Origin: an uncultured Myxococcales bacterium
GTDB taxonomy: Bacteria; Myxococcota_A; UBA9042
Direction: 5' to 3'
NCBI GenBank assembly: GCA_937915965.1
Contig: CALGHC010000490.1
Span: 1 to 35,467 of the forward strand
Length of the DNA stretch: 35,467 nt
Position numbers and translations under genes: made by a program. Positions 92 through 26,678 of this stretch are shown piece by piece. The notes beneath the pieces are model-generated. The model ran no database searches, was not told where the DNA came from, and was given only the letters and a program-made list of their open reading frames with translations. Each line of letters opens with the position of its first letter. Position 1 is the first letter of the stretch.

Positions 92-225
92 ATCCTGGGG
101 CTCGGCTTGCCCCTGCTACTTCGATTGACGCGATCCAACCGCCCACCTACCCTCTGCGTGCCTTCACGTTGCCCTCCCGCGCGGTCCTCTCTCCGCGACG
201 GCACGAGCCGCCGAAGACGGATCCG

Positions 226-3936: not shown

Positions 3937-3948
3937 ATGAACAACTGC

Positions 3949-3977
3949 TTGCCTTGCAGTGCTTGCTTTGCTACCGT
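3949..3977 (+). promoter_or_regulatory. Possible sigma-70-like promoter for the giant gene (TTGCCT-17 nt-TACCGT)
   Basis: ttgcct at 3949-3954, a 17-nt spacer, then taccgt at 3972-3977, in the only lower-GC stretch between lipB and the giant CDS. Pattern match only. Confidence 0.2.
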
Positions 3978-4188
3978 CTGCTGTCTGAGGACTACCAGCG
4001 TCCGCCCCCCCAATGACGCTGGTGATCAAAGTGTTCCGAGTCGAGGCAAGGGTATGTGCCGCTCCTCCCCGGTCGTTCCCACGCCTGAGACGGTAGACGC
4101 GGACTGGTTGTCGGTTCGAAATGGCGCCGCGATCCCCTGCACTGCGTCGAAACGATGGCCCGGAAGGCCAACGGGTCATTCGTTCGTT

Positions 4189-4194
4189 AGGAGG
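4189..4194 (+). promoter_or_regulatory. Shine-Dalgarno AGGAGG for the giant lipoprotein gene
   Basis: aggagg at 4189-4194, 6 nt upstream of ATG 4201. ATG 4195 abuts the SD and is less likely. Confidence 0.65.
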
Positions 4195-4200
4195 ATGGGT

Positions 4201-7200
4201 ATGCGGAACGAGCACCTCACTCGCGCGCTCCGCGTTGCGTTGGTTCTCTTTGCCTTCGTAGCAGCGAGCTGCGCAGAGCAAGAACCCGACGCAGCGTCTC
4301 CAGGACTGTTGACGGACTACGCCGCCGGCGTCGATGCCGAGTTCGGCGTCGAAGCCTTCGCGCTTGGTTCACCAGCGCTGGGTGTCAGCAATCCGGGTCC
4401 TTTGGCCTTGTTCCCGATCGAATCGGGCGGCTCGGCCAACATCGACTTCGAGTTCACCGTCGACAGCTTCTCGCTCGGCAAGGTGAACTGCTACCTCGAT
4501 GGCGTCGCGGTTGGCTCGAGCAAGACCTCGCCGTACACCTTTGTCGCCGTGACGCTGGGCGTGCATACGCTCGGTTGCGTCCTCGCCGATGATGGTGGCA
4601 CCGAGCTGGTCAACGCCGAGGCGCGGGCCGTGGTTCAGGTCAAGGTGGTCGCCCCGTGCGCCGTGCCGAGCGACTGCGACGACGGCAACGCCTGTTCCCA
4701 GGAAGGCTGCACCGACGGCGAATGCACCTACAACATCGTCGGCACCTGCTGTGGTTCAAAGTTCGACTGCTCGGCGGGCGAGCTGTGCCTTGAGGCCAAC
4801 ACGCTCGACGCGCAGTGCTCGACCTGCGTGGGCGACCTCGACTGCGACGACGAAGAGAGCTGCACCACCGACAAATGCGACCTCAGCGGCGAGAAGGGCG
4901 TCTGCTCCAACAAGAAGTCCAACCCCGAGTGCTGCTCGACGGCGGGCGATCCTTGTGACGACACGCTCAGCTGCACGATCGACTCCTGCAACGTCCTCGA
5001 CGGCGTGTGCGAGCACGTCAAGCCCGAGGGCGCGTGCTGCACCGCGGCCGAGTGCGTCTCCGGCGACACCTGCAAGGTCGGCGACTGCGTCGACAACGAG
5101 TGCCGCTACGGCCCCGACAACTCGAAGCCGGACTGCTGTTCCGCGCAGAGCAACCCAGACTGCGACGACGACTACTACTGTTCGCTCGACTACTGCGATC
5201 AGCCCCAAGCCGGTGGTTGGACCCAGTGCCGCCACGAGGCCGACCCCGACAAGCCGATCTGCTGCGACATCACCAAGCCCGTCGGCGAGTGCGTCGACGG
5301 CGAGGCCTGCACCTTCGACTTCTGCGAGAACTGGGAGTGCTACCACCAGCAGGTCGAGGAATGCTGCACGGCCAACGAACAGTGCGACGACGCCAAGTTC
5401 TGCACCGATGACCTGTGCGCGCTGGCTCCAGATGCCGTGGAGGGCGACACGGGCTCGTGCCTGCACGAATGGCAGCCCGGCTGCTGCATGGACACCCCTG
5501 ACTGCGACGACGGCAAGTTCTGTACGTTGCAGAGCTGCCAACCGGGCACGTTCACCTGCGTCTACGGCAAGCCCGACGCCACGTGCTGTGACGACGTCAG
5601 CGAGTGTGATGACGGCAAGTTCTGCACGGCCAAAGCCTGCGTGAACCACAGCTGCGTCTTTGGACAGGACAACTTCAAGCCCGGTTGCTGCGATGACGTC
5701 GCGGATTGCGACGACGACAACGCTTGCACCATCGACACCTGCGACAACGAGACCACCCAGTGCGTTCACATCGACGTCGAGGACGCGGAGTGCTGCAACA
5801 CCGCGCTCGACTGCGATGACGGCGACTGCACCACCGACGACTTCTGCGACGCCAGCGACAAGTGCGTCTACAAGCCCTCCCTGGGCAAGTGCGCCGAGGC
5901 GACCGCCGCGATCGACTGCGACGACGGCGTCCCCTGCACGATCGACGCCTGCGTGGTTGTCGACGGTTGCGGCACCTGCCAGTACGCCAGCGACCCGACC
6001 TGCTGCGACGGCGACATCGACTGCGATGACGACAAGGTGTGCACCACCGATGTCTGCACGGACAACGTCTGCAGCCACGACGGCACCGCGGACTGCTGCC
6101 TGGACGACCAGGACGCCCTGACCGCTTGCGACGACAACAACGCATGCACCACGGAGTACTGCGTCAACAACACCTGCCGGCACACGGCTCCCGCCGGCGG
6201 CTGCTGCGCCAGCGTCGACGACTGCACGCCCGACGGCTGCTCGACGGCCTCTTGCAAGAACATTGTCAATGGCATCGGCGCATGTGAGTACGTGACCAAG
6301 GAAGATTGCACCTGTACGCAGTTGGACTACGCCACCGTCTGCGATGACAACAACCCGTGCACGGTCGAGGGCTGCTCGGACTTTGGTGATTGCCAGCACA
6401 GCGCCCTGGACGGCTGCTGCCTCGACAAGTTCGACTGCGACGATGGCGTGCCCTGCACGTACGACGCTTGCATCTTCAACGAGTGCCTGAACTACGAAGC
6501 CGCGGGCGGCGACGCGCCGCTGTGCTGCACCGTCGAGACCGAGGCGGTCGACTGCGCGTATCTCAACGCCGAATGCGCCAACGGCAAGTGCATCGAGCAG
6601 CCCGACGGCACGCGCGCTTGCGTCGCGGTCGAGAAGGCTACCTGCACCGTCGACATCGGCTACTGCCAGGACTTCGAGGGCGGCGACAGCCTCAAGGCGA
6701 TGGGCTGGAATCCGAACGACCTCGCAGGCTCGGCCTCGGGCAACTGGGGCCTCGGTACCGCCGGTGGCCTCGGCCCCGACCAGAACGCGCGCCTGACCTG
6801 GACGCCGACCAAGGTCAACTTCGACACCTGCCTGCAGTCTCCGGTCATCCAGGCGGCTGGCGCGGACACGGTGACGATCCAGTTCGACCGCGAGTTTGTG
6901 CTCAACGTGGGCGACCTCGACGCGATCTACGTGCTGGGCTCCCTCGACGGCGAGAACGTCGACTGGACCAACTCGCTGACCGTCGACATCGTTCCCAAGC
7001 CACAGAACTTCGGTCCCGAGACCTACGACCTGAAGCTGCCCTCCGAGCTGAGCGGCTCCAATGGCCTGCGCCTGGCGTTCTGCGCGGCCGGTCCGAGCAC
7101 CTTCAACCTCACGCGCTTCGCGGTCGACAACATCTGCGTCGTCAAGGGTACCGCGCCGACCTTCACCCAGTGCCCGGCCAACCAGACCGTCGAGGTGAAC

Positions 7201-10200
7201 CAGACGGCGCTGATCCCGATCAAGGCGCTCGACTCAGACATCGCCGATATCATTTCGTTCTCCCTGGTCAAGGCGCCGAGCTTCGTCAAGCTCACGTCGG
7301 CCCTGTACTTCTGGCTGGACGAGTCGTGGAACGCGAACCTGACGATCGCACCGGACGATCTGGCCCAGGTCGGCGAGCACGAGGTGACCATCAAGGTCTC
7401 GGACGGCTACCTCTACAAGCTGTGCACGTTCAAGGTCACCGTGACCTACCAGGGCGGCGTCCTCATCTGGAAGCCCTCCGAGGTCCCAGAGGGCAACGCG
7501 ACGCCGGTGAAGGAAGCGGTCATCGATCTCGGCAAGTTCGCCCAGATCGTCGACGACATCTCGCTGTACCCCGACCTCACCAAGTTCGACGCCGTGTTCG
7601 TGCTGCTTGGCGTCTATCCCTACAACCACGTGCTGGTCGAGGGCGAAGTCAACGGTCTGAAGCTCTATCTCGCCAAGGGCGGCAAGCTCTACATGGAAGG
7701 CGGCGAGACCTGGTTCTTCGATAACCCGACCACGCTGCACGCCTTCTTCAAGGTCACCGGCGACGTGGACGAGTCGCCGGCGGGCGTCACCGGGCCACTC
7801 GATGGCTACGCGGCCTACGCCGACGTCAACGTGACTCCGACCAAGCACTTCCAGTGGAACTACAGCCAGGACTTTGACTGGAACAACGCCAACGACCTCA
7901 TCAAGGCAAAGACGACCGTCCAGCGTACCCGCAAGATCCTGCAGTCCAGCGGTGGGCAGGTGTTCACGACTCAGGTGGGCCACGATGACCTGATCGCGAA
8001 GTACCGATCCATCGGCTCGTCGATCCTCTTTGGTGGTGTGCTTCCGGGCCCGCTCGACACGGCCGGCGACATGATGGAGCGGATCTTCTGGTTCTTCGAC
8101 AACGGTTTCGTCGATTGCACCAAGCACAGCGACTGCGACGATGGCAACGACTGCACCGACGACATCTGCCAGGACGGCGAGTGCAGCAGCGCCAACACCT
8201 GCCTGTGCCAGGGGCTGGCCGGGCCAGAGTGCAACGGCGCCGCGCTGACCAAGCTGATCACCAACGGCGGCGGCTCGACCGACGTCGTCGACAGCTACTC
8301 TTGCGATCCTGGCGTGTGGCTCGGCAAGGAGTCCGCGTTCGCCTACAAGAGCGACGACTCGCGCCAGGTTAGCGTCCAGCTCAGCAACATCTCGAACACC
8401 AACGCGCGGATCTTCATCCTGCGCGAAACCGAGAAGGGCTGCGACCCGACCAACTGCATCGTCTCCGGCAGCGACAGCGTCGACTTCACGGCCGTCGGTG
8501 GCGTGCAGTTCTACATCGTCGTCGACGTGCCCGGTCAGGCCGAGACTGCACAGTTCGACATGGCTCTGACGTGCGCCGACCCGGAGATCTGCGACAACGG
8601 CGTCGACGACAACGCCAACGGCCTGATCGACTGCGCTGACCTTGGCTCGTGCTGCGGCGACGCGGCCTGCGCCGAGACCTGCGACGGCATCGACGACGAC
8701 TGCGACGGCCAGGTCGACGAGGACTGCGACGACGACGGCGACCAGTTCTGCGACGCCTCGATGGTCGTGAAGGGTACGCCGGCGATCTGCGTCAAGGGCG
8801 GCGGCGACTGCGAGGACCTCGACGGCACGGTCAACCCGAGCTCGGTCGAGATCTGCCTCAACGGCAAGGACGACAACTGCAGCGGCAGCCCGGACGAAGA
8901 GAACGCTGACGGCTGCGTGCAGTACTACAGCGATCTGGACTCCGACGAGTACGGCACCGGCGCGCCGAAGTGCTTGTGCGCGCCCAGCGGCAGCTACAAG
9001 GCGCTCGCCGGCGGCGACTGCAACGACGCCAACAAGAACGTCAACCCGGGCACGACTGAGCAGTGCGACACCGAGGATGACGACAACTGCGACGGCTCGA
9101 ATAACGATCTCAACGCCGACGGCTGCAGCAACTTCTACACCGATCTAGACGACGACCTGTGGGGCACGACGCCGTTCAAGTGCATCTGCGTCGCGGACGG
9201 CGTCTTCAAGTCCGGCAAGCCGGGCGACTGCAACGAGTCGGACGCCAGCATCAACCCCGGCATGGCCGAGAGCTGCAACAACATCGACGACAACTGCAAT
9301 GGTCAGATCGATGAAGGCTGCGACGACGACGGCGACCTCTACTGCGACATCGATCCCGTCTATGCACCGCCGCCGGGCGGCGCGCCCGACATCTGCCCGA
9401 AGGGCCCAGGCGACACCGACGACACCGACCCGTCGATCAATCCCGAGGGAATCGAGATCTGCGACGGCCAGGACAACGACTCCAACGGCCAGGTCGACGA
9501 GGGCTGCGACGACGACAGCGACGGCTTCTGCGACACCGCCATGATCACCATCGGCACGCCGCCGTCCTGTCCCGGCGGCGGCGGCGACTGCAACGACACG
9601 GACGAGCTGGTCAACCCAGCGGTCAAGGAAGAGTGCAACACCGTCTACGACGACAACTGCAACGGATCAATCAACGATCTCAATGCCTTGAACTGCACCC
9701 CGTGGTTCCGCGATGCCGACATCGACCTGTGGGGCACCAGCGACAACAAGTGCCTGTGCTTCCCGGTCGGTCAGTACAGCGCGGTCAACCCCGGCGACTG
9801 CAACGACAGCGATCCGGTGATCAACCCGGCCGCGACCGAGATCTGCGACAACATCGACAACGACTGCGACGACCTGACTGACGAGGGCTGCGACGAGGAC
9901 GGTGACGAGTACTGCAACACCGAGATGGTCATCCTCGGCGTGCCGACCGTCTGTCCCAACGGCGCGGGCGACTGCAATGACAGCGACGCCACGGTCAACC
10001 CGTCGCGCATCGAGGTCTGCGCCAACGGCAAGGACGACAACTGCAACGGCACGCAGAACGATCAGGACGCCACCGGCTGTACCATCTACTACGTTGATGA
10101 GGACAGCGACACGTTCGGCACCACCTCGTCGAAGTGCTACTGCGAGCCTTTCGGTACGTTCAAGTCGACCAACAACGAGGACTGCGACGATGGCGTCGCG

Positions 10201-13200
10201 GCCGTCAACCCCGCGGCGCTCGAGATCTGCGACAACATCGACAACAACTGCGACGGCGTCATCGATGAGGGCTGCGACGACGACAACGACGACAACTGCG
10301 ACGCCTCGATGACGACGATCGGAACGCCGATTACGTGTCAGGGTGGCGGTGGCGACTGTGACGACAACGACGCAAGCATCTACAAGGCCAAGACGGCCGA
10401 GGTCTGCGACGACGTCGACGATGACTGCAACGGCGTGATCGACAATGGCTGCGACGACGATCAGGACGGCTTCTGCGACGCCAACCTGCTCGTGGCGGCG
10501 AAGACCCCATCGGTCTGCCCCAAGGGAGCCGGCGACTGCGATGACGTCAACGACGACGTCAACCCAGAGGCCGCCGAGGTCTGCGGCAACAACCTCGACG
10601 ACAACTGCAACGGCAGCCAGAACGACGAGGACGCGCTGGGTTGCAAGGCCTTCTTCTTCGACAGCGACGAGGACTTCTACGGTCTGAATCTCTCGAAGTG
10701 CCTGTGCGTGTCGGCCGGCGCCTTCACCGCCTCCCAGGGTGGCGACTGTGACGACATCGAGAAGACGATCAACCCCAACGCGGTCGAGGTCTGCGACGAC
10801 GTCGACAACAACTGCGACGGCGTGATCGACGAGCCCAACGCTGGGGGCTGCACGCCGCTGTACTACGACGGCGACGGCGACAGCTACGGCATCGACCTGA
10901 CCTCGTGCGTGTGCAAGCCGACGGTGCCCTACACAGCCACGATGAAGGGCGACTGCAACGACACCAACGCGGACATGAACCCCGGCGCCTCGGAGCTTTG
11001 CAACAACATCGACGACAACTGCGATACGCAGGTCGACGAGGGCTGCAACGACGACGGCGACAAGTTCTGCGACGCCGCGATGACGACGATCGGTCAGCCC
11101 GCGGTCTGCGCGCTGGGCGGCGGCGACTGCGACGACGAAGACGCGTCGATCAGCCCGATCGGCAACGAGGCGTGCAACGACAAGGACGACAACTGCAACG
11201 GCACCACCGACGAGGGCTGCGATGACGACCTCGACGGCTACTGCGACGCCAACCTGGCGACGACGGGCAACCCGGCGGCGTGCTCGAGCGGTGGCGGCGA
11301 CTGCAATGACCTCGACAACGCGATCAACCCCGGCAAGGACGAGATCTGCGGCAACACCGTCGACGAGAACTGCTCGGGTTCGGACAACGACGAGGACGCG
11401 GTCGGCTGCAAGGTCTTCTACGAGGACGGCGACCAGGACACGTGGGGCGCCGACGGCGGCGACTCGAAGTGCCTGTGCAAGGCCGAGGGCATCCTGGTCG
11501 GGACCAAGGACGGCGACTGCGACGACAACAACGAGCTCGTCTACAACGGCGCCGTCGAGATCTGTGACGGCATCGACAACAACTGCGAAGGCACCATCGA
11601 CGAGGGCTGCGACAACGACTCGGATGGCTACTGCGACTCGGCGATGACCACCATCGGTACGCCGCCGAGCTGCCCGTACGGTGGCGGCGACTGCGAAGAC
11701 GAGGACGAGGCGATCAACCCGGGCAGCAAGGAGATCTGCGCAACGCCGTATGACGACAACTGCGACGGCAACCTCAACGACGTCGGCGGCGACTCGTGCA
11801 CGACGTACTATTACGACAGCGACGGCGACGGTTGGGGCGTGGGCGTGACGCAGTGCCTGTGCGCACCGGACGGCAAGTTCACCGCCGACAAGTCGGGTGA
11901 CTGCGACGACACCGATGTGGGCACCAACCCGGCAGCGGCCGAGGTCTGCGGCGACGGCATCGACAACAACTGCAACGGCAACCCGAACGAGGTTGGTGCC
12001 GAGAACTGCTCGCAGTTCTTCAAGGACGGGGACAAGGACGGCTACGGCTTCGGCGCCTCGGTGTGCATGTGTGTGGCCTACGGCGAGTACATCGCCGCGA
12101 TCGGCGGCGACTGCAACGATGGCGACAACGGCGTCAACCCCGGTACGGACGAGCTGTGCGACGGCAAGGACAACAACTGCCTCGCCGGCATCGACGAGGA
12201 CTGCGACGGCGACGGCGACGACTGGTGCGCCGCCGACAAGCAGGTCGTCGGCAAGCCGCCGGTCTGCCCCAACGGCGGCGGCGACTGCAATGACCAGGTG
12301 CCGACCACCTACCCGCAGGCCGAGGAGATCTGCGACAACGTCGACAACAACTGCGACGACGTCACGGACGAGGCTTGTGACTCCGACAAGGATGGCTGGT
12401 GCGCGACCGGCAAGACGGTCATCAACAACCCGCCGGTCTGCGACGGCGGCGTCGATGACTGCAACGATCTCAACAGCCAGGTGTACCCGGGCAAGGTCGA
12501 GATCTGCGATGACATCGACAACAACTGCGACGGAGTCACCGACGAGGGCTGCGACGACGATGGCGACAACTACTGCGACCTGAACATGTTCCTCGCTGGC
12601 TTCCCGTCGACCTGCACGGCCGGCGGCGGCGACTGCGACGACACCAACGCGGTGGTCAACCCGGGCGCTCCCGAGATCTGCGACAGCCTCGACAACAACT
12701 GCTCTGCGGGCATCGACGAGGTCTGCAACGACGACGACGGTGACGGCTACTGCAAGGGCAGCGCGACGGTCAGCCCGGGCTGCCCCAAGGGCGGCGGCGA
12801 CTGCAACGACGGCAATCCGTTGATCAACCCCGGCCAGACGGAGGATTGCAACACCGAGTTCGACGACGACTGCAACGGGTCCCTCAACGAGTCCGGTGCG
12901 GCCAACTGTGTGACCTGGTACCAGGACGCGGACGTCGACGGCTACGGCACTGGCGCGGGCACCTGCCTGTGCTTCCAGAGCGGCAACCTGACGGCGGCGG
13001 CGCCGGGCGACTGCGACGACACCAACGGCAAGGTCAACCCGATGGCCACCGAGTACTGCGATGGCATCGACAACGACTGCCAGGGACTCGACAGCGGCTG
13101 CGACGACGACGGCGACAAGTACTGCGACGCCAACCTGCTCGTGAAGAAGGGCGCGACCTGCGTCAACTCGACCGTGCCCGGCGACGACTCGTCGATCCCC

Positions 13201-15903
13201 GGTGACGACTGCAATGACGAGAACGCAGCGTCGAAGCCCGGCGGCCTGGAGCTGTGTGACGACGTCGACAACAACTGCAACGGCATCGTCGACGAGGACT
13301 GCGACTCGGACAACGACAACTTCTGTGACGCCAGCGCCGAGCTGCTCTTCGGTAACTGCTGCGACGCGCACGTCGGTAAGGGCTGCACCGACGCGACCGT
13401 CCAGGCGTGCGTGTGCAATACGTATGCGACCTGCTGCAACACGGCGTGGGACGCTTCGTGCGCCCAGGCGGCCAGCGATCTGGGTTGCAGCACTTGCGAC
13501 TTCCCGTCGACCTGCACGGCGGGCGGAGCGGACTGCGACGACGACTCCAACTCGATCAACCCCGACGCGCTGGAGAACTGCAGCACGCCAGACGACGACA
13601 ACTGCAACGGTCTGACGGACGAGATCAACGCGGTGGGCTGCACGAAGTACTACTACGACAACGACGGCGACGGCTACGGCACGGCGCAGTTCGAGTGTCG
13701 CTGTGTCGCCAACGGCAAGTTCAACGCCACACAGGCTGGCGACTGCGACGACAACGATCCGACCTCGTACAGCGGTGCGGCGGCCGAGATCTGCGACGGC
13801 AAGGACAACAACTGCAACAGCGTCATCGATGAGGGCTGCGACGCCGACAAGGACGGCTACTGCGACGCCGGCCTGCAGGTGACCTCCAAGGTCGCGTGCC
13901 CCAGCACGACGATCACAGGCGGCAAGGGCGACGACTGCGACGACGCCGATCCGAAGGTCCATCCGGGCGCCAACGAGCTGTGTGACGGCGTCGACAATGG
14001 CTGCAACGGTCAGATCGACGAGAACTGCGACAAGGACGGCGACAAGTTCTGCGACTCGGCGTTGGTCACGGTCGGCACACCGCCGGTCTGCCCCTACGGC
14101 GGCGGCGACTGCAACGACAACGCCGCGGGCCAGAACCCCAACAGCCAGGAGATCTGTGACGGCAAGGACAACAACTGCAACAACGTCACCGATGAGCCAG
14201 GCGCGCTGGGCTGCTCGACGTACTTCTACGATGGCGACCAGGACGGCGTCGGTACGGCCTCGTGGTTGTGCCTGTGCACGGCCGACGGCTTCTACAACTC
14301 GACGAAGACCGACGACTGCGACGACACCTGCCCGACCTGCTACCCAGGCGCGACCGAGGTCTGCGATGGCAAGAACAACGACTGCGACGGCTACGTTGAC
14401 GAAGGTTGCAACAGCGACCCCGATGGCTACTGCACTTCGGCGATGGTGACCATTGGAACGCCTCCGGTCTGTCCGAAGGGCGGCGGTGACTGCAACGACC
14501 TCAATGGCTCGATCAACCCGGGCGCCATCGAGCTGTGCAACAACATCGACGAAAACTGCAACGGCAAGATCGACGAGGGCGCAGGCGACAGCTGCGACCT
14601 GCCAGCGGCGACCGCGACCTGCGTGGCCGGCCAGTGCCAGATCAAGGATTGCGCCGACTACTTCTACAACCTCAACAGCAACCACGCCGACGGCTGCGAG
14701 TGCAACGGCAACGACGTCTACGAGCCCAACGATACGTGCGGCACCGCGACGAACGACGCGATCCCCGCGCTGAGCGACAAGGCGCCGGGCGACTACACCA
14801 GCGTCTCGGGCATGGTCGTGACGACGCAGGATGAGGACTGGTTCCGCTTCCAGGCGACCGACACGGCCGATACGGGCGCCAGTGGCTGTGATCGCTTCAA
14901 CGTGCGGGTGCGCTTCTTGAGCAACCCGGGCAGCCTGGCCATGGAAGTCCACCGGGGCGCGTGCCCGACCGGCAGCAACACGCCGACGGTGTGCTGCGGT
15001 CAGACCGACTTCACCTGGTTCACCAACTTCGCGGGTGGCAAGGTGCCGTCAGCGGCGCATTCCGAGTACGGCGAGTGCCCGTGCACCACCGACAACGCCA
15101 AGTTCGACCAAAGCCAGACCGGCTGGAACTACGGCCCGTCGCAGGGTGGTCCGTATTGCAAGAAGTGGACGAACGGCAAGTGCATCCCGACCGGCTACGA
15201 CCAGACCTGGTGCAACAACGACTCTGCCGAGTTCTTCGTGCGCATCTACAACAAGACGGGCGCGGCGATCTGTGCCCCGTATCAGGTCGAATTCAGCAAC
15301 GGTGTCTACGGCGCGCCGACCACCCAGGGCTACAAGGTTGTCGCTGGCGACCTCAACCTCGCTAAGGGCGGCGGGTCGAACTTCTCGGGCGGTAGCCTGG
15401 TGAACTCGTCGGATGGCACCAAGCTCAACGGCTGGTACGGCAACGCCGGTCAGGCTTGGCAGCTGTGCTACAAGCGCTCGACTCACGGCTACAGCTCGTA
15501 CACCTTCCACAGCCTGTGCAACGGCAAGGGGCCGACCATCACGGTGGTGAGGTCGATCTACAACAGGCTCTTCGGCGGCTACAACGCGTCGTCCTGGTAC
15601 AACGGCTGCGGCTACAACAACAACGGTTCGAACTGGTTGTTCTCACTGACGAGCAACACCAAGCACACGGTCTACCGCTACCCGCAGTACGCGACCTACA
15701 ACTGCAGCCACTATGGACCGACGTTTGGCGGCGGCCACGACATGTACATGGATTCGTCGATGAACTACATGTACACCAACCTGGGCCACACCTATCAGTG
15801 CCAGCCGGGCCAGGGCTACGGTTCAAGCGCCTGCCGCAACTACCTTGCGGGTACGTACAGCGGCAATTACATCAGCGAGGTTGAGGTCTACTACAAGCAG
15901 TAG
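4201..15903 (+). CDS. Giant (~3,900 aa) secreted Cys/Asp-rich repeat lipoprotein. Order: Myxococcus-type Cys repeats, MAM-like, Ig-like and alpha/beta cassette, MopE-like metal-binding array, PPC, TLDc
   Basis: Uninterrupted ORF 3937..15903. Start placed at ATG 4201 for three reasons: the strong SD, the sequence MRNEHLTRALRVALVLFAFVAASC (a signal peptide with a lipobox-like AASC), and codons in 3937-4200 that frequently end in A/T, unlike the rest of the gene. See the sub-features. Confidence 0.9.
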   Translation: MRNEHLTRALRVALVLFAFVAASCAEQEPDAASPGLLTDYAAGVDAEFGVEAFALGSPALGVSNPGPLALFPIESGGSANIDFEFTVDSFSLGKVNCYLDGVAVGSSKTSPYTFVAVTLGVHTLGCVLADDGGTELVNAEARAVVQVKVVAPCAVPSDCDDGNACSQEGCTDGECTYNIVGTCCGSKFDCSAGELCLEANTLDAQCSTCVGDLDCDDEESCTTDKCDLSGEKGVCSNKKSNPECCSTAGDPCDDTLSCTIDSCNVLDGVCEHVKPEGACCTAAECVSGDTCKVGDCVDNECRYGPDNSKPDCCSAQSNPDCDDDYYCSLDYCDQPQAGGWTQCRHEADPDKPICCDITKPVGECVDGEACTFDFCENWECYHQQVEECCTANEQCDDAKFCTDDLCALAPDAVEGDTGSCLHEWQPGCCMDTPDCDDGKFCTLQSCQPGTFTCVYGKPDATCCDDVSECDDGKFCTAKACVNHSCVFGQDNFKPGCCDDVADCDDDNACTIDTCDNETTQCVHIDVEDAECCNTALDCDDGDCTTDDFCDASDKCVYKPSLGKCAEATAAIDCDDGVPCTIDACVVVDGCGTCQYASDPTCCDGDIDCDDDKVCTTDVCTDNVCSHDGTADCCLDDQDALTACDDNNACTTEYCVNNTCRHTAPAGGCCASVDDCTPDGCSTASCKNIVNGIGACEYVTKEDCTCTQLDYATVCDDNNPCTVEGCSDFGDCQHSALDGCCLDKFDCDDGVPCTYDACIFNECLNYEAAGGDAPLCCTVETEAVDCAYLNAECANGKCIEQPDGTRACVAVEKATCTVDIGYCQDFEGGDSLKAMGWNPNDLAGSASGNWGLGTAGGLGPDQNARLTWTPTKVNFDTCLQSPVIQAAGADTVTIQFDREFVLNVGDLDAIYVLGSLDGENVDWTNSLTVDIVPKPQNFGPETYDLKLPSELSGSNGLRLAFCAAGPSTFNLTRFAVDNICVVKGTAPTFTQCPANQTVEVNQTALIPIKALDSDIADIISFSLVKAPSFVKLTSALYFWLDESWNANLTIAPDDLAQVGEHEVTIKVSDGYLYKLCTFKVTVTYQGGVLIWKPSEVPEGNATPVKEAVIDLGKFAQIVDDISLYPDLTKFDAVFVLLGVYPYNHVLVEGEVNGLKLYLAKGGKLYMEGGETWFFDNPTTLHAFFKVTGDVDESPAGVTGPLDGYAAYADVNVTPTKHFQWNYSQDFDWNNANDLIKAKTTVQRTRKILQSSGGQVFTTQVGHDDLIAKYRSIGSSILFGGVLPGPLDTAGDMMERIFWFFDNGFVDCTKHSDCDDGNDCTDDICQDGECSSANTCLCQGLAGPECNGAALTKLITNGGGSTDVVDSYSCDPGVWLGKESAFAYKSDDSRQVSVQLSNISNTNARIFILRETEKGCDPTNCIVSGSDSVDFTAVGGVQFYIVVDVPGQAETAQFDMALTCADPEICDNGVDDNANGLIDCADLGSCCGDAACAETCDGIDDDCDGQVDEDCDDDGDQFCDASMVVKGTPAICVKGGGDCEDLDGTVNPSSVEICLNGKDDNCSGSPDEENADGCVQYYSDLDSDEYGTGAPKCLCAPSGSYKALAGGDCNDANKNVNPGTTEQCDTEDDDNCDGSNNDLNADGCSNFYTDLDDDLWGTTPFKCICVADGVFKSGKPGDCNESDASINPGMAESCNNIDDNCNGQIDEGCDDDGDLYCDIDPVYAPPPGGAPDICPKGPGDTDDTDPSINPEGIEICDGQDNDSNGQVDEGCDDDSDGFCDTAMITIGTPPSCPGGGGDCNDTDELVNPAVKEECNTVYDDNCNGSINDLNALNCTPWFRDADIDLWGTSDNKCLCFPVGQYSAVNPGDCNDSDPVINPAATEICDNIDNDCDDLTDEGCDEDGDEYCNTEMVILGVPTVCPNGAGDCNDSDATVNPSRIEVCANGKDDNCNGTQNDQDATGCTIYYVDEDSDTFGTTSSKCYCEPFGTFKSTNNEDCDDGVAAVNPAALEICDNIDNNCDGVIDEGCDDDNDDNCDASMTTIGTPITCQGGGGDCDDNDASIYKAKTAEVCDDVDDDCNGVIDNGCDDDQDGFCDANLLVAAKTPSVCPKGAGDCDDVNDDVNPEAAEVCGNNLDDNCNGSQNDEDALGCKAFFFDSDEDFYGLNLSKCLCVSAGAFTASQGGDCDDIEKTINPNAVEVCDDVDNNCDGVIDEPNAGGCTPLYYDGDGDSYGIDLTSCVCKPTVPYTATMKGDCNDTNADMNPGASELCNNIDDNCDTQVDEGCNDDGDKFCDAAMTTIGQPAVCALGGGDCDDEDASISPIGNEACNDKDDNCNGTTDEGCDDDLDGYCDANLATTGNPAACSSGGGDCNDLDNAINPGKDEICGNTVDENCSGSDNDEDAVGCKVFYEDGDQDTWGADGGDSKCLCKAEGILVGTKDGDCDDNNELVYNGAVEICDGIDNNCEGTIDEGCDNDSDGYCDSAMTTIGTPPSCPYGGGDCEDEDEAINPGSKEICATPYDDNCDGNLNDVGGDSCTTYYYDSDGDGWGVGVTQCLCAPDGKFTADKSGDCDDTDVGTNPAAAEVCGDGIDNNCNGNPNEVGAENCSQFFKDGDKDGYGFGASVCMCVAYGEYIAAIGGDCNDGDNGVNPGTDELCDGKDNNCLAGIDEDCDGDGDDWCAADKQVVGKPPVCPNGGGDCNDQVPTTYPQAEEICDNVDNNCDDVTDEACDSDKDGWCATGKTVINNPPVCDGGVDDCNDLNSQVYPGKVEICDDIDNNCDGVTDEGCDDDGDNYCDLNMFLAGFPSTCTAGGGDCDDTNAVVNPGAPEICDSLDNNCSAGIDEVCNDDDGDGYCKGSATVSPGCPKGGGDCNDGNPLINPGQTEDCNTEFDDDCNGSLNESGAANCVTWYQDADVDGYGTGAGTCLCFQSGNLTAAAPGDCDDTNGKVNPMATEYCDGIDNDCQGLDSGCDDDGDKYCDANLLVKKGATCVNSTVPGDDSSIPGDDCNDENAASKPGGLELCDDVDNNCNGIVDEDCDSDNDNFCDASAELLFGNCCDAHVGKGCTDATVQACVCNTYATCCNTAWDASCAQAASDLGCSTCDFPSTCTAGGADCDDDSNSINPDALENCSTPDDDNCNGLTDEINAVGCTKYYYDNDGDGYGTAQFECRCVANGKFNATQAGDCDDNDPTSYSGAAAEICDGKDNNCNSVIDEGCDADKDGYCDAGLQVTSKVACPSTTITGGKGDDCDDADPKVHPGANELCDGVDNGCNGQIDENCDKDGDKFCDSALVTVGTPPVCPYGGGDCNDNAAGQNPNSQEICDGKDNNCNNVTDEPGALGCSTYFYDGDQDGVGTASWLCLCTADGFYNSTKTDDCDDTCPTCYPGATEVCDGKNNDCDGYVDEGCNSDPDGYCTSAMVTIGTPPVCPKGGGDCNDLNGSINPGAIELCNNIDENCNGKIDEGAGDSCDLPAATATCVAGQCQIKDCADYFYNLNSNHADGCECNGNDVYEPNDTCGTATNDAIPALSDKAPGDYTSVSGMVVTTQDEDWFRFQATDTADTGASGCDRFNVRVRFLSNPGSLAMEVHRGACPTGSNTPTVCCGQTDFTWFTNFAGGKVPSAAHSEYGECPCTTDNAKFDQSQTGWNYGPSQGGPYCKKWTNGKCIPTGYDQTWCNNDSAEFFVRIYNKTGAAICAPYQVEFSNGVYGAPTTQGYKVVAGDLNLAKGGGSNFSGGSLVNSSDGTKLNGWYGNAGQAWQLCYKRSTHGYSSYTFHSLCNGKGPTITVVRSIYNRLFGGYNASSWYNGCGYNNNGSNWLFSLTSNTKHTVYRYPQYATYNCSHYGPTFGGGHDMYMDSSMNYMYTNLGHTYQCQPGQGYGSSACRNYLAGTYSGNYISEVEVYYKQ
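4651..6660 (+). repeat. About 19 tandem Myxococcus-type cysteine-rich repeats (CC-x3-5-DCDDGxxCTxDxCxxxxC; TIGR02232-like) inside the giant CDS
   Basis: Recurrent units such as CCDDVSECDDGKFCTAKACVNHSC, CCDDVADCDDDNACTIDTCDNETTQC and CCLDKFDCDDGVPCTYDACIFNEC. One extra isolated copy lies at 8116-8210. Confidence 0.8.
6640..7150 (+). other. MAM-like / jelly-roll domain of the giant protein
   Basis: CTVDIGYCQDFEGGDSLKAMGWNPN ... LRLAFCAAGPSTFNLTRFAVDNICVV. This matches the MAM pattern of C-x-F-E start and (I/F)A(I/V)D(D/N)I end. Assigned by eye. Confidence 0.4.
7153..7446 (+). other. Ig-like / cadherin-like domain of the giant protein
   Basis: APTFTQCPANQTVEVNQTALIPIKALDSDIADIISFSLVKAPSFVKL...HEVTIKVSDGYLYKLCTFKVTVT, typical of dystroglycan-type cadherin-like or putative Ig modules. 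Confidence 0.45.
7447..8112 (+). other. Unassigned ~220-aa Cys-free alpha/beta domain of the giant protein
   Basis: VLIWKPSEVPEG...FDAVFVLLGVYPYNHVLVEGEVNGLKLYLAKGGKLYMEGGETWFFD...MMERIFWFFDNG. Contains no Cys and no repeats. The strand-helix-GG-strand pattern recalls GATase1 / ThuA / DUF4159-type folds. Confidence 0.35.
8215..8575 (+). other. PPC-like beta-sandwich domain of the giant protein
   Basis: YSCDPGVWLGKESAFAYKSDDSRQVSVQLSNISNTNARIFILRE...GGVQFYIVVDVPGQAETAQFDMALTC. Confidence 0.35.
8578..14590 (+). repeat. Array of about 30 MopE-like putative metal-binding units (GDCxDxDxxxNPGxxExCDxxDNNCDGxxDEGC; PF11617-like), organised into 18 DEGCDDDGDxxCD super-modules
   Basis: 30 units were counted by eye (GGGDCEDLDGTVNPSSVEICLNGKDDNC ... 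GGGDCNDLNGSINPGAIELCNNIDENCNGKIDEG). 12 interleaved (Y/F)YxDxDxDxxG units are also present. Confidence 0.85.
14701..15300 (+). other. Bacterial pre-peptidase C-terminal (PPC, PF04151-like) domain with a Cys-containing insertion
   Basis: NGNDVYEPNDTCGTATNDAIPAL...DEDWFRFQATD...FNVRVRFLSNPGSLAMEVHRG...AEFFVRIYNKTGAAICAPYQVEFSNG. This shows the classic EPND, DxDW(F/Y)xF and Y-x-(V/L) end. Confidence 0.65.
15385..15900 (+). other. TLDc (TLD, PF07534-like) domain at the extreme C-terminus of the giant protein
   Basis: AWQLCYKRSTHGYSSYTFHSLCNGKGPTITVVRSIYNRLFGGYNASSWY...GSNWLFSLTSN...YGPTFGGGHDMYM. This matches the TLDc pattern W-x-L-x-Y-(R/K)-x-S-x-(D/H)-G-(F/Y)-S ... FH..C(D/N)GKGPT(L/I) ... FGGY ... 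(F/W)LFSL ... GP.FGGG.D(L/M). Confidence 0.7.
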
Positions 15904-15975
15904 GCGAGACCCGCCCGGGCTGCGAGACCAGCCCTGGCTACGAGATCAGCGAGGAGTACGAGACGACGCGGCCGG
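15904..15975. repeat. Degenerate 18-bp tandem repeat x4, starting at the first base after the giant-gene stop codon
   Basis: gcgagacccgcccgggct / gcgagaccagccctggct / acgagatcagcgaggagt / acgagacgacgcggccgg. The (g/a)cgaga(c/t)c core is conserved. Confidence 0.6.
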
Positions 15976-16004
15976 GGTCCATTGGACTCCGGCCGCTGTC
16001 GTCT
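15961..16004. terminator. Long GC-rich hairpin between the convergent giant gene and gatB; probable bidirectional terminator
   Basis: agacgacgcggccggggtcc (15961-15980) pairs with ggactccggccgctgtcgtct (15984-16004). That gives about 20 bp with one bulged T and one G-U pair, and a 3-nt loop. TTGT follows on the plus strand. It lies 58 nt after the giant-gene stop and 32 nt after the gatB stop. Confidence 0.6.
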
Positions 16005-22799: not shown

Positions 22800-24056
22800 C
22801 TACGGAGCGGCTTTGGCTTTGGCGCGCTTGAGGCTGAGTACGGCCCGGGGCGGGTGCGGTGCGACTGCCGGCTTCTCCAACCCCGCATGGACGCGCCACG
22901 CCGTCTCGTCGAGGCCGAGCTGCTTATCGGTCAATGTTTCTAGCGCGTACACGACGTAATTGGCAACATCGCGGGGCTCGCTGCGCAGCAGCGGCACCAG
23001 GGTGGGCACCACTGTGCGATCGCCCAAACGGCCGATGGTCTTGAGCAGGTCGATGCGCTGTGCGACTCCGACGTGCGTCAGGCGCTTGACCAGGGTCGCG
23101 GCGGCGCCCACCGGCTTGAGTTTGATGACCGCGTCGAGCACCCATGTCTGCTCGTCCGGCGCGAGGTCGTCCGCTCCGGCGGTTGCCAGCACGATGGGGC
23201 CGAGATCGCTCAGGCCCATCGCCACGGCGGCCTTCGCCGCTTCGCCTCGCAGTCCCGGTGTCGCCAGACCGAAGCGGATCGCGGGCCTGGCCCAGGGGGT
23301 CGGCACGGCCGCGAGCAGCGCCAACGCGGGGCGACCAACAGAGCGGGCCGGATGGTCGACGAGCTGGGTTGCCACGGGTATCGCAGCCGCAGATTTCATC
23401 CGCGCCAAGGCTGCCATGGCTCGGCTGCGCGCGGGCGTGTAGATATCGGCCGCTCCCGCGACCTCCACGAGTGGCGCCTCGGCGCGGAGGTCGCCGATCA
23501 TGCCAAGGGCGCGGGCAGCGGCGGCGCGCACCCGGCCGTGGCGTTCCTTGTTGCCCATGGTCGCGATCAGGGCCGCGACTGACTCGGGCGCCTTGAGCAC
23601 GGACAGGGCGCCGATCGCGAGAAGGCGTGCGCGGGTGTCCCCGTCATTGACGAGTTCGACCAGCGGGGCGACCGCGCGGTCGTCGCCGGTGCGTCCCGCC
23701 GCCGCCAGCAGCTGGGCGTACAGGCTCGCAGGCTGGCGATGGGCTTGTGCCGCGAGCCAGATCGGCTCGCGCACACTGTCGCCTCCGATGAGGCTGAGCG
23801 CCATCGCAGCCTTGCCGACCTTCTCGTCCGCGGTCTGCGCGGACGACACGATGGCGATCAGGCCGCTGCGCGCCGGCTCCGCTTGCTTTGTCGCCGCAAG
23901 CAACGCCGGACAGTGGCCAATCGACAGGGCCTCGCAGGCGAGGATGTCATCGGCCGGCGAGGCATTTGCCACAGCCGCTTGAGACAGCGCCGTGAACGCC
24001 GCCAGGCCCGCAAGCAGCATCGTGAAATCGCAGAACGTCGGGTGCAGGTCGCGCAT
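22800..24056 (-). CDS. Secreted HEAT-repeat (PBS-lyase HEAT-like) protein
   Basis: MRDLHPTFCDFTMLLAGLAAFTALSQAAVANA looks like a signal peptide. Repeated helical units follow, e.g. ARLLAIGALSVLKAPESVAALIATMGNKERHGRVRAAAARALGMIGDLRAEAPLVEV. GGAGGAG lies 8 nt before ATG 24056. ATG 24020 is an alternative start. Confidence 0.7.
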   Translation of the reverse strand: MRDLHPTFCDFTMLLAGLAAFTALSQAAVANASPADDILACEALSIGHCPALLAATKQAEPARSGLIAIVSSAQTADEKVGKAAMALSLIGGDSVREPIWLAAQAHRQPASLYAQLLAAAGRTGDDRAVAPLVELVNDGDTRARLLAIGALSVLKAPESVAALIATMGNKERHGRVRAAAARALGMIGDLRAEAPLVEVAGAADIYTPARSRAMAALARMKSAAAIPVATQLVDHPARSVGRPALALLAAVPTPWARPAIRFGLATPGLRGEAAKAAVAMGLSDLGPIVLATAGADDLAPDEQTWVLDAVIKLKPVGAAATLVKRLTHVGVAQRIDLLKTIGRLGDRTVVPTLVPLLRSEPRDVANYVVYALETLTDKQLGLDETAWRVHAGLEKPAVAPHPPRAVLSLKRAKAKAAP

Positions 24057-24334
24057 GGTGGTTGGCTCCTCCGACCGCCGAGGATGCCGCCCGCGGCCGC
24101 CGCCGTCCAGCGCAGTCGTGGCCCACGGGTGTGGTTCACAATTCCGCGTCAGCAGCCGCGCCCGTGATCGGCAGCCGTTCGCGTCTCTCTTCTTGGGGGT
24201 CGGGGCTCGACCCCCAGCGGCAAGAAACGTGGTTCTTGCCGCTTCCCCACTGCGTGGCGGCGTTCGCCGCCTGAGACCCGGGATTCGGAACCGCGCCCGT
24301 GGCCCACTGGCCCATTCGCCCATCTCAAGCACAC

Positions 24335-24381
24335 CGTTGGCGGCTCTCGTTGGCGGCTCTCGTTGGCGGCTCTCGTTGGCG
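24335..24381. repeat. 13-bp tandem repeat (cgttggcggctct) x3.6 in a 510-bp structured intergenic region
   Basis: Three perfect copies at 24335-24373, followed by the partial copy cgttggcg. Confidence 0.9.
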
Positions 24382-24412
24382 TACGGCGCGCGATGCCCCG
24401 GCCACAAACCGA

Positions 24413-24446
24413 CGCGCGGTCCCCAGATCGCTCCGGGGACCGCGCG
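24413..24446 (-). terminator. 12-bp perfect GC hairpin downstream of the DUF2330 gene; probable intrinsic terminator
   Basis: cgcgcggtcccc (24413-24424), a 10-nt loop, then ggggaccgcgcg (24435-24446). On the minus strand it is followed by tcggtttgtgg. A second palindrome, aaccgttggcccaacggtt, lies at 24452-24470. Confidence 0.5.
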
Positions 24447-24568
24447 CAGGGAACCGTTGGCCCAACGGTTTGAGTCTCGCCTCTCGGCCTGGGTCCACCC
24501 ACTCGGCTCGGGTCTGCCTGCGGCAGGGCGGCGGCTCGCCGTTTGGATTTCGCCGGGCGGCGTGTTGG

Positions 24569-26437: not shown

Positions 26438-26517
26438 GGTCATCTCCGTGGGGCCTTGGGGTCGGTGTTGGCGTGCAAACAGAGCAGCCGTTCTACCCGC
26501 TGGTTCTATCCCTTAGT

Positions 26518-26533
26518 TGCAAACTCCTTGCCA
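26518..26533 (-). promoter_or_regulatory. Sigma-54 (-24/-12) promoter upstream of the DUF2330 gene
   Basis: The minus-strand sequence TGGCAAGGAGTTTGCA matches the consensus TGGCACG-N4-TTGCW at 11 of its 12 specified positions, with correct GG/GC spacing. It lies about 80 nt upstream of the start codon. Confidence 0.6.
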
Positions 26534-26678
26534 ACCTCGACCAACACCGTGCGATCGTGATCAGCATCTCGTTTGTTGGCACGCTCCAGCCGCCGCTGAT
26601 GCCGCACCGCCGCCCTGGTGCTGTGGCATAAATCAACAGATCGGTGTGGCTATGTTTATGAATTGAACGCTCTGCCCG

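What the first reader, a model, noticed from the sequence alone, without database searches (positions are those of the whole stretch)
15385..15900. A TLDc domain, best known from eukaryotes, forms the C-terminal tip of the giant bacterial lipoprotein
The last ~170 aa (AWQLCYKRSTHGYSSYTFHSLCNGKGPTITVVRSIYNRLFGGYNASSW...NWLFSLTSN...YGPTFGGGHDMYM) follow the TLDc signature block by block. TLDc domains are characterised in eukaryotic OXR1, NCOA7 and TBC1D24-type proteins, where they are linked to oxidative-stress protection and V-ATPase interaction. They have no established catalytic activity. Here the domain is predicted to be extracytoplasmic, contains several Cys, and sits directly after a PPC domain at the far end of a ~3,700-aa stalk. 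I know of no function for TLDc in that context, and this position is the one expected for an effector or receptor-binding module.
Basis: partly seen in the sequence, partly recalled or inferred. Interest (0 to 1): 0.72.

Follow-up and report, generated by a model that had tools for sequence, protein, structure and literature searches.

The report
TLDc domain tipping giant bacterial lipoprotein
The last ~170 residues of a 3,900-residue bacterial surface lipoprotein are a genuine TLDc domain, but such exported TLDc domains are common and already catalogued in bacteria, where they most likely act as binding heads on surface proteins.

Summary
Window 15382-15900 encodes a TLDc domain: Pfam PF07534 scores 82.8 bits against a cutoff of 24.5 (E 3.6e-23). 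An AlphaFold model (pLDDT 91.6) matches only solved TLDc structures in the PDB. It ends a 3,900-aa, 9%-Cys lipoprotein (ATG 4201) that carries at least 31 MopE repeats.

The novelty was overstated. One motif scan (PTFGGGHD) found 103 confirmed bacterial loci in Myxococcota, Bacteroidota, Nitrospina, Planctomycetota, Verrucomicrobiota and Burkholderiales. An exhaustive HMMER search gave 6,804 clusters. NCBI already names these 'TLD domain-containing protein' and curates a PEP-CTERM-anchored TLD family.

All complete bacterial examples I read carry export or anchoring signals: signal peptide, lipobox, T9SS tail or PEP-CTERM. Their partner domains are of adhesion type. Tandem arrays reach 7 copies. 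In giant proteins the TLDc lies at or near the end opposite the anchor.

The 'PPC domain' before it is a conserved 250-aa Cys-rich module with no Pfam model; PPC membership was not shown.

Best reading (inferred): a disulfide-stabilised, non-catalytic binding head on a giant surface fibre, not a V-ATPase regulator or injected effector. This is a new member of a catalogued but functionally unstudied kind.

The parts
4201..15903 (+). Gene for the giant lipoprotein: 3,900 aa plus stop, 9% Cys.
   Evidence: ORF list and translation. The RBS and start were checked. The same 3,900-aa product is called in ENA scaffold ERZ23486293. The N-terminal 1,540 aa are collinear at 45-61% identity with the 5.4-6.5 kaa proteins P0015-P0018.
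4201..4272 (+). Lipoprotein signal peptide ending in the lipobox Cys: MRNEHLTRALRVALVLFAFVAAS|C.
   Evidence: Read directly from the sequence. The N-termini of P0015-P0018 also end in ASAC, VTAC, LPGC and MFGC followed by A/T-E. The motif fits the PROSITE PS51257-type pattern as I know it; no predictor was run.
8806..14577 (+). Stalk of at least 31 MopE-type Cys/Asp-rich 'putative metal-binding' repeats (PF11617).
   Evidence: Pfam: 31 stretches, E 2.5e-167. The first repeat was located and the last.
14593..15336 (+). Conserved 248-aa Cys-rich beta-sandwich module ('PPC-like'; EPNDTC...DEDWF motif) with a roughly 60-90 aa Cys-rich insertion. It has no Pfam model.
   Evidence: It is 45-56% identical to modules in L001-L004, L009, L012, L023 and P0015-P0032, where it usually lies at the extreme C-terminus. 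No Pfam hit was found at E<=10 in any of 14 members. The AF2 model has pLDDT 60, with a beta-sandwich core at 70-86. Foldseek gave no hit at E<=1e-3. P0271 and P0272 lack the insertion.
15337..15381 (+). Flexible Gly/Ser-rich linker between the two terminal modules.
   Evidence: Residues 1-26 of the TLDc model have pLDDT 47-55.
15382..15900 (+). TLDc domain. The Pfam envelope is nt 15445-15891. It contains the motif YGPTFGGGHD and six Cys in three co-varying pairs.
   Evidence: Sequence. Fold. Cys co-occurrence and conserved residues.

Best explanation
SHOWN. Window 15382-15900 encodes a bona fide TLDc fold. It is the C-terminal end of a 3,900-aa protein that starts with a lipoprotein signal peptide. 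The protein continues through Cys-rich repeats and at least 31 MopE repeats, and ends in a two-module head: a PPC-like Cys-rich beta-sandwich followed by the TLDc. The TLDc belongs to a large clade with the motif GPTFGGG(H)D. Every complete bacterial member I read carries an N-terminal export signal, a lipobox, a T9SS tail or a PEP-CTERM anchor. These members are fused to adhesion or matrix-type modules and often occur in tandem.

INFERRED. The protein is exported by Sec, lipidated (lgt and lspA lie just upstream) and anchored by its N-terminal lipid, probably in the outer membrane. The disulfide- or metal-stiffened repeats form a long stalk. The TLDc, stabilised by three disulfides, sits at the far end from the anchor as a non-catalytic binding head for a surface ligand. 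That ligand could be a glycan or protein on other cells, on particles, or in the cell's own matrix.

This is the anchor-extender-head logic of giant bacterial adhesins and of the myxobacterial TraA receptor. It is not the cytosolic V-ATPase-regulating role of eukaryotic TLDc proteins. The ligand is unknown.
For: - Identity of the domain: Pfam 82.8 bits. AF2 pLDDT is 91.6, and the 16 significant Foldseek hits are exclusively TLDc.
- Export and anchoring: RBS, signal peptide and lipobox, with the lipobox Cys conserved in homologues.
- Signals in relatives: the complete bacterial ORFs printed mostly begin with signal peptides or lipoboxes. Those that do not were started at the first possible start codon, so their true N-termini are uncertain. 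6/6 Bacteroidota proteins with an N-terminal TLDc end in a T9SS Por_Secre_tail. Three of the four small proteins tested hit the Pfam PEP-CTERM model.
- Position: the TLDc is therefore at the end opposite the anchor both in N-anchored proteins (this one) and in C-anchored ones (T9SS).
- Partner domains within +/-600 aa in 40 loci: MopE, Stig1, HYR, collagen, C-type lectin, cadherin, Ig-like, laminin-G and PATR. No catalytic or toxin family is among the 25 most frequent partner families shown.
- Partners in the wider search: collagen, EGF, B_lectin and TSP3.
- Multivalency: 66 of 138 top relatives carry 2-7 TLDc copies.
- Cys positions co-occur as three pairs (27/27, 4/4 and 29/31), as expected for disulfides in an oxidising compartment.
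- Neighbouring genes are housekeeping (lspA, lgt, cdsA, gatCAB, pgm). No secretion or immunity partners are present.
Against: - No ligand, binding site or localisation was tested; the function is inferred from architecture only.
- H69 (221/233) and D146 (214/224) are almost invariant polar residues. They are specific to this clade and could mark a catalytic or metal site rather than a binding site.
- In the closest full-length relatives (P0015-P0018) the TLDc is internal and the PPC-like module caps the protein. 'Tip' is therefore not a family rule.
- I could not inspect model coordinates, so neither the disulfide geometry nor the surface clustering of conserved residues was checked.
- Surface exposure, as opposed to a periplasmic location, is not shown.
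Confidence: 0.5

Rival explanations
1. The TLDc is an extracytoplasmic enzyme domain, for example a hydrolase or a modifying enzyme acting on envelope or matrix polymers. It would use the clade-specific invariant His (in FH) and Asp (in GGGHD).
For: H69 and D146 are near-invariant in an unbiased set (221/233 and 214/224). The original 'c' in TLDc stood for a predicted catalytic domain (my knowledge). Small proteins made only of a signal peptide, a TLDc and an anchor exist, as they do for many surface enzymes.
Against: No TLDc has a demonstrated catalytic activity (reviews PMC5614904, PMC8608904). Tandem arrays of up to 7 copies and fusions only to adhesion modules are more typical of binding modules. 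H145 is replaced by Y, P or F in about a third of domains.
Confidence: 0.15
2. The TLDc mediates homotypic or matrix self-assembly. It would link fibres of the same protein, or bind the cell's own exopolysaccharide, rather than recognise foreign targets.
For: PEP-CTERM anchoring is associated with exopolysaccharide and floc-forming bacteria (my knowledge), and many small TLDc proteins are PEP-CTERM anchored. Collagen-repeat fusions occur. Several paralogues occur per genome, e.g. three loci in MAG VGRO01.
Against: Nothing distinguishes self from foreign ligands in the data. This is really a sub-case of the binding-head model.
Confidence: 0.2
3. The TLDc is a delivered effector. Like eukaryotic TLDc proteins, it would bind rotary V/A-type ATPases, here of prey or host cells.
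For: The fold is shared with V-ATPase-binding TLDc proteins. The fold-critical Gly/Ser/Glu positions tested in Ncoa7 (PMC8608904) have equivalents here: G62, S64, G91, G142 and E194.
Against: V1 sectors are cytosolic. No translocation, cleavage or toxin-delivery module or partner gene is present. The conserved disulfide pairs argue for a permanently extracytoplasmic domain. The same clade occurs as PEP-CTERM or T9SS surface proteins in many non-predatory taxa. The conserved positions are structural, so they say nothing about V-ATPase binding.
Confidence: 0.03
4. The TLDc has an extracytoplasmic antioxidant or redox role, echoing the oxidative-stress phenotype of OXR1 and NCOA7.
For: There is a historical link between TLDc and oxidative-stress resistance (PMC5614904). 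The protein is extremely Cys-rich (360 Cys).
Against: The Cys in the TLDc co-vary as pairs, i.e. they look like structural disulfides. PEP-CTERM members have no Cys at all (Cys fraction 0.0). The eukaryotic phenotype is now attributed to V-ATPase regulation (PMC8608904, PMC11094088).
Confidence: 0.03

Closest known systems
Eukaryotic TLDc domains (OXR1/Oxr1p, NCOA7, TBC1D24/Skywalker, TLDC1/mEAK7, TLDC2, Rtc5p); Pfam PF07534
   Same: - Same fold: TM 0.83-0.87 to NCOA7-AS (7obp) and OXR2 (4acj).
- Significant sequence similarity.
- Shared fold-determining positions: HG-x-S, FGGY, the GGG bend and the C-terminal E-V-E strand.
- mEAK7 even shares the GGxH of the Gly bend.
   Different: - Only 16-22% identity.
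- Extracytoplasmic rather than cytosolic.
- Three predicted disulfides.
- Clade-specific invariant FH and GPTFGGG(H)D.
- Fused to adhesion-type repeats rather than to TBC, LysM or GRAM domains.
- V-ATPase binding is topologically implausible.
NCBIfam NF038124, 'PEP_CTERM-anchored TLD domain-containing protein', and NCBI's generic bacterial 'TLD domain-containing protein'
   Same: Same TLDc clade: 84.6 bits over profile positions 16-194 of 235. These are also exported, cell-surface-anchored bacterial TLDc proteins.
   Different: The score is below the family cutoff of 100. There is no PEP-CTERM tail. The anchor here is an N-terminal lipid on a 3,900-aa stalk, whereas NF038124 members are about 240-aa single-domain proteins without Cys.
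Giant lipoproteins P0015-P0018 (5,406-6,517 aa; uncultured, probably Myxococcota) and loci L001-L004, L009, L012, L023
   Same: - The N-terminal 1,540 aa are collinear at 45-61% identity.
- The lipobox is the same.
- They share the MopE stalk, the PPC-like module (43-54% identity) and the TLDc (45-59% identity).
   Different: Those proteins are longer. They carry one or two internal TLDc domains and end in the PPC-like module. Only the window protein and L001 have the order PPC-like then TLDc, with the TLDc last.
Anchor-extender-head surface proteins: giant RTX adhesins (e.g. MpIBP, LapA) and the Myxococcus TraA receptor (PA14 head on a Cys-rich repeat stalk). Comparison from my knowledge; not tested.
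   Same: One end is anchored in the envelope, a long repetitive stalk follows, and the ligand-binding modules sit at the far end.
   Different: There is no sequence relationship. The anchor here is a lipobox rather than a T1SS retention module or MYXO-CTERM. The head is a TLDc rather than a PA14 or sugar-binding domain. Binding is not demonstrated.

Membership tests
TLDc domain (Pfam PF07534) | The HMM score exceeds the curated gathering threshold. | tested here: met
   82.8 bits against a cutoff of 24.5, E 3.6e-23, profile positions 25-167 of 170. In the context of the whole protein the score is 75.9 bits.
TLDc domain (Pfam PF07534) | The TLDc fold: two-sheet beta-sandwich with flanking helices, as in 4ACJ and 7OBP. 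| tested here: met
   AF2 pLDDT 91.6 and pTM 0.84. Foldseek: 16 of 16 significant PDB hits are TLDc, with TMt 0.83-0.87 and rmsd 2.2-2.5 A; the next hit is at E 0.16. This is a predicted structure, not an experimental one.
TLDc domain (Pfam PF07534) | Conserved fold-critical residues, i.e. the equivalents of Ncoa7 G815, S817, G845, G896 and E938 (PMC8608904). | tested here: met
   The H-G-Y-S, F-G-G-Y, F-G-G-G and E-V-E-V motifs align to these positions. G62, G91, G142 and E194 are at least 90% conserved in 99 relatives. The mapping of G896 and E938 rests on the profile and fold alignments, not on a pairwise alignment.
Eukaryotic TLDc proteins as V-ATPase interactors | Binds the V1 sector of a rotary V-ATPase. 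| not testable with these tools
   This needs biochemistry. The predicted extracytoplasmic location makes it unlikely.
NCBIfam NF038124 PEP_CTERM-anchored TLD protein | Score above the curated cutoff (100 bits) and a C-terminal PEP-CTERM sorting signal. | tested here: not met
   84.6 bits, below 100. The protein ends ...SEVEVYYKQ* with no PEP-CTERM tail.
PPC / bacterial pre-peptidase C-terminal domain (PF04151), for the module at 14593-15336 | HMM match to PF04151. | tested here: not met
   No hit at E<=10 for the window segment or for any of 13 homologous modules. No PDB sequence hit.
PPC / bacterial pre-peptidase C-terminal domain (PF04151), for the module at 14593-15336 | PPC-type beta-sandwich (jelly-roll) fold. 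| tested here: inconclusive
   The model has pLDDT 60, with a beta-sandwich core at 70-86. Foldseek gave no hit at E<=1e-3. Weak hits include jelly-roll and P-domain-like modules: SIDT2 extracellular domain, the Tk-SP C-terminal domain, furin, CUB and C-CPE. The motif EPNDTC...D-E-D-W-F resembles the PPC signature (read by eye, from my knowledge).
Bacterial lipoprotein | Signal peptide with a lipobox [LVI..][ASTG][GAS]C near the N-terminus. | tested here: met
   MRNEHLTRALRVALVLFAFVAAS-C after an AGGAGG RBS. The Cys is conserved in 4/4 full-length homologues. The same start is used by an independent gene call. No dedicated predictor was available, and lipidation itself was not tested.

The most novel reading that the evidence does not exclude
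The GPTFGGG(H)D clade could be an ancient, mainly extracellular branch of the TLDc superfamily, shared by many bacterial phyla and by marine or aquatic invertebrates (corals, rotifers). In that reading it acts as a new type of lectin-like or protein-binding module, or as a His/Asp enzyme, on cell surfaces. V-ATPase binding would then be a derived, eukaryote-specific use of the fold. Bacterial giant adhesins would offer a tractable route to the long-sought molecular activity of TLDc.
Probability: 0.3. Interest if true: 0.6.

Novelty: new member of a known kind. Interest (0 to 1): 0.38.

Why it matters
TLDc proteins matter in human neurology and kidney physiology, and their only established activity is binding the cytosolic V-ATPase. 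A large clade of disulfide-bonded, surface-anchored TLDc domains exists in bacteria, with close relatives fused to EGF or lectin domains in corals and other organisms. This shows the fold has a second, extracellular use that nobody has studied.

For this particular gene the result is mainly an annotation. It adds one more giant adhesin-like lipoprotein from an uncultured, probably myxobacterial, organism, with a TLDc head. Its value is as an entry point. Several culturable carriers were identified in which the function could be tested: Roseivirga, Sediminibacterium, Massilia, Pseudoduganella, Pelagimonas and Roseibium.

Tried and rejected
- PPC assignment of the preceding module. Pfam gave nothing at E<=10 on the window segment or on 13 homologues. 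PDB sequence search gave nothing. Structure prediction from a 9-sequence alignment reached only pLDDT 60, and Foldseek found no significant match. The label was left as 'PPC-like, unproven'.
- Word-indexed homologue search with the single domain. It gave only 14 hits, mostly fragments. It was superseded by the motif scan, the profile search and the exhaustive search.
- Literature. Five searches for bacterial, prokaryotic, PEP-CTERM, myxobacterial or 'TLD domain-containing protein' found no paper on bacterial TLDc. The Chloroflexus ATP-synthase and Entamoeba marina hits were irrelevant.
- Conserved synteny. tblastn of the window's lgt, cdsA, gatA, gatB and the giant N-terminus against the 80 loci gave nothing at 1e-10. 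The 10-kb flanks mostly lie inside the giant genes, so this says little.
- Catalytic domains elsewhere in the protein. The conserved mid-region (nt 6658-8900) has no significant Pfam family.
- Terminator or promoter consensus between the gene and the convergent gatB: none found.
- Model coordinates could not be accessed, so disulfide distances and surface clustering of H69, D146, Y132 and Y157 were not checked.

Full report
**1. What is at the coordinates**

The window is high-GC (62-72%). A single 3,988-codon ORF spans 3937-15903 on the + strand.

The likely start is ATG 4201. An AGGAGG lies 6 nt upstream, and the product begins MRNEHLTRALRVALVLFAFVAAS|C, a lipoprotein-type signal peptide. 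An independent gene call on the source scaffold (ENA ERZ23486293, scaffold_451) gives exactly this 3,900-aa protein. Its precomputed Pfam annotation already lists MopE and TLD.

The stop codon is at 15901-15903, and the convergent gatB gene begins about 130 nt downstream.

**2. Is it a TLDc domain?**

Yes, by three independent lines of evidence.

- Pfam. On the last 199 aa, PF07534 scores 82.8 bits against a gathering cutoff of 24.5 (E 3.6e-23), covering profile positions 25-167 of 170. The hit survives when the whole protein is scanned.
- PDB sequences. phmmer finds Skywalker/TBC1D24, NCOA7, OXR2 and mEAK7 directly. A profile of bacterial relatives improves this to E 2.6e-9.
- Predicted fold. 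An AF2 model on a 99-sequence alignment has mean pLDDT 91.6 and pTM 0.84. A disordered Gly/Ser linker precedes an ordered domain that starts at about nt 15382. Foldseek returns 16 significant PDB matches, and all of them are TLDc domains. TM is 0.83-0.87 and rmsd 2.2-2.5 A to NCOA7-AS and OXR2. The next hit is at E 0.16.

The positions shown to be fold-critical in Ncoa7 (G815, S817, G845, G896, E938; PMC8608904) have counterparts here. These are G62, S64, G91, G142 and E194 of the 199-aa segment. The four Gly/Glu positions are at least 90% conserved among relatives, whereas the Ser position is variable.

**3. How unusual is it?**

- NCBIfam holds a curated model, NF038124 'PEP_CTERM-anchored TLD domain-containing protein'. 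This domain hits it at 84.6 bits, below the family cutoff of 100.
- A scan of one genome per bacterial or archaeal species with the single motif PTFGGGHD gave 103 tblastn-confirmed loci. They come from Myxococcota (often several per genome), Bacteroidota (Roseivirga, Sediminibacterium, Flavobacteriales, Cyclobacteriaceae), Nitrospina, Bdellovibrio, Planctomycetota, Verrucomicrobiota, Burkholderiales, Acidobacteriota, KSB1 and a CPR lineage. Because one exact motif was required, this is a lower bound.
- An exhaustive HMMER pass over 1.84 billion cluster representatives gave 6,804 clusters at E<=1e-3 and 1,675 at E<=1e-10. The query also included the PPC-like module.
- A profile search returned 2,617 proteins. 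NCBI names them 'TLD domain-containing protein [Myxococcales bacterium]' or 'PEP_CTERM-anchored TLD...'.
- The same clade includes coral proteins (Dendronephthya, Xenia, Stylophora; some with EGF domains) and rotifer proteins (Brachionus, Rotaria; with BTB domains) at 35-38% identity.

No paper in the searchable library discusses bacterial TLDc. The kind is therefore catalogued but functionally unstudied.

**4. Architecture across bacteria**

I extracted the ORF around each of the 80 loci and read the termini of the complete ones. Four patterns recur.

- (a) TLDc as the last domain. There are 27-28 loci of this type, mostly Myxococcota and Nitrospina. Most have signal peptides or lipoboxes at the N-terminus.
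- (b) TLDc directly after the signal peptide of Bacteroidota proteins that continue for roughly 440 to more than 3,300 further residues. 6 of 6 tested end in a T9SS Por_Secre_tail, one of them just under the cutoff.
- (c) Proteins of about 225-300 aa made of a signal peptide, a TLDc and a PEP-CTERM tail.
- (d) Internal TLDc in giant Cys-rich proteins.

All 40 ORF segments scanned pass Pfam TLD. Their neighbouring domains are MopE, Stig1, HYR, collagen, C-type lectin, cadherin-like, Ig-like, laminin-G, NHL and PATR. No enzyme or toxin family is among the 25 most frequent partners shown.

Among the 150 best relatives from the unbiased search, 138 contain a TLDc and 66 of those have 2-7 copies.

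In the giant proteins the TLDc lies at or near the end opposite the anchor. Here the anchor is an N-terminal lipid and the TLDc is C-terminal. In Bacteroidota the anchor is the C-terminal T9SS signal and the TLDc is N-terminal.

**5. The protein's own family**

The first 1,540 aa are collinear at 45-61% identity with four proteins of 5,406-6,517 aa (P0015-P0018). These begin with the same lipobox and the same GLLTDYA...GVDAEF segment.

In those proteins one or two TLDc domains are internal, and the protein ends in the 250-aa Cys-rich module that precedes the TLDc in the window protein. Only locus L001 shares the window's order, PPC-like then TLDc.

That module is strongly conserved, with 49 invariant columns in 14 sequences. 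It has an EPNDTC...DxDW[YF] start and a Cys-rich insertion that is missing in P0271 and P0272. It matches no Pfam family in any of 14 members, even at E<=10. The model is poor (pLDDT 60) and has no significant fold match. 'PPC' is therefore a plausible resemblance, not a demonstrated membership.

**6. Features of the TLDc itself**

The six Cys fall into three pairs whose presence co-varies among relatives. In ORF numbering they are:

- 3844 and 3861: 27 sequences with both, 0 and 4 with one only.
- 3891 and 3923: 4 with both, 0 and 0 with one only.
- 3955 and 3966: 29 with both, 0 and 2 with one only.

This is the pattern expected for disulfides in an exported domain. PEP-CTERM members lack Cys altogether.

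In the unbiased set, the His of the FH motif is kept in 221 of 233 domains. The Asp of GGGHD is kept in 214 of 224, and the His of GGGHD in only 143 of 222. The invariance of PTFGGGHD in alignment A2 is an artefact of how those loci were found and should not be over-read.

**7. Mechanism**

Shown:
- the fold;
- the position of the domain in the protein;
- the export and anchor signals;
- the types of fusion partner;
- the tandem arrays;
- the Cys co-variation.

Inferred: a Sec-exported, lipid-anchored fibre whose distal head (the PPC-like module plus the TLDc) binds an external ligand. This follows the anchor-extender-head logic of giant adhesins and of the myxobacterial TraA receptor (my knowledge).

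I give this reading about 0.5. The rivals are:
- an enzyme using the conserved His and Asp (0.15);
- self or matrix assembly (0.2), which is really a sub-case of binding;
- a V/A-ATPase-directed effector (0.03);
- an antioxidant role (0.03).

The genomic neighbourhood gives no help. It holds lspA, lgt, cdsA and a lipoate-ligase-like gene upstream, and gatB, gatA, gatC and a phosphoglucomutase downstream.

**8. Verdict**

The interpretation overstates rarity and mislabels the neighbouring domain as an established PPC. The 'effector' option has no support.

This is a new member of a catalogued but uncharacterised class of exported bacterial TLDc proteins. The wider class, rather than this gene, is the interesting object.

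Noticed in passing
window 76-1131 (lspA, Peptidase_A8) and about 1266-2252 (lgt), followed by cdsA 2257-3117 and an LplA-B_cat gene at about 3292-3936: The two dedicated lipoprotein-maturation genes (signal peptidase II and prolipoprotein diacylglyceryl transferase) lie about 2 kb upstream of the giant lipoprotein gene, on the same strand. This may be coincidence or functional clustering.
   Followed up: partly
window 14593-15336; also L001, L002-L004, L009, L012, L023, P0015-P0032: A strongly conserved ~250-aa Cys-rich module (49 invariant columns in 14 sequences) usually forms the extreme C-terminus of giant MopE-repeat proteins. It has no Pfam, NCBIfam or PDB match and looks like an undescribed domain family with a PPC-like core and a Cys-rich insertion.
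   Followed up: partly
window 6658-8820 (aa 820-1540 of the mature-numbered protein): This ~720-aa region is 48-61% identical in the giant homologues P0015-P0018 and P0026, yet has no significant Pfam family. Only sub-threshold HYR, He_PIG and Big_7-type hints appear. Its function is unknown.
   Followed up: partly
P0002, P0074, P0205, P0212 (corals); P0264, P0268 (rotifers); The closest named relatives of this bacterial TLDc clade outside bacteria are coral and rotifer proteins (35-38% identity, same GPTFGGGHD motif). Some are fused to EGF domains (secreted) and others to BTB domains. This suggests inter-domain gene transfer or an ancient shared extracellular clade.
   Followed up: no
P0021 (1,833 aa, 7 TLDc stretches), P0034 (6), P0020 (526 aa, 3 motifs); Some proteins consist largely of tandem TLDc domains. 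66 of the 138 top relatives with a TLDc have at least 2 copies.
   Followed up: partly
L001, L003, L005, L022, L024, L025 (record titles): High-GC, MopE-rich loci are labelled 'uncultured Enterobacteriaceae', 'Rickettsiales' or 'Enterobacterales' in co-assembly MAG records. These labels look wrong for the sequence content, which is Myxococcota-like.
   Followed up: no
window 4001-16000 versus the flanks: The giant gene has lower GC (0.62-0.66) and strongly positive AT skew compared with its neighbours (0.68-0.72). This probably reflects its Asp/Asn/Cys-rich composition rather than foreign origin.
   Followed up: no
window 22800-35237, minus strand: This stretch holds a HEAT-repeat protein, a DUF2330 protein, an M1 peptidase with HEAT repeats, a VWA/GATase1-like protein, a DUF4159 protein and an 891-aa ORF with no Pfam hit. 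The VWA plus DUF4159 pair resembles Bat/aerotolerance-type envelope clusters. It is unrelated to the finding.
   Followed up: no
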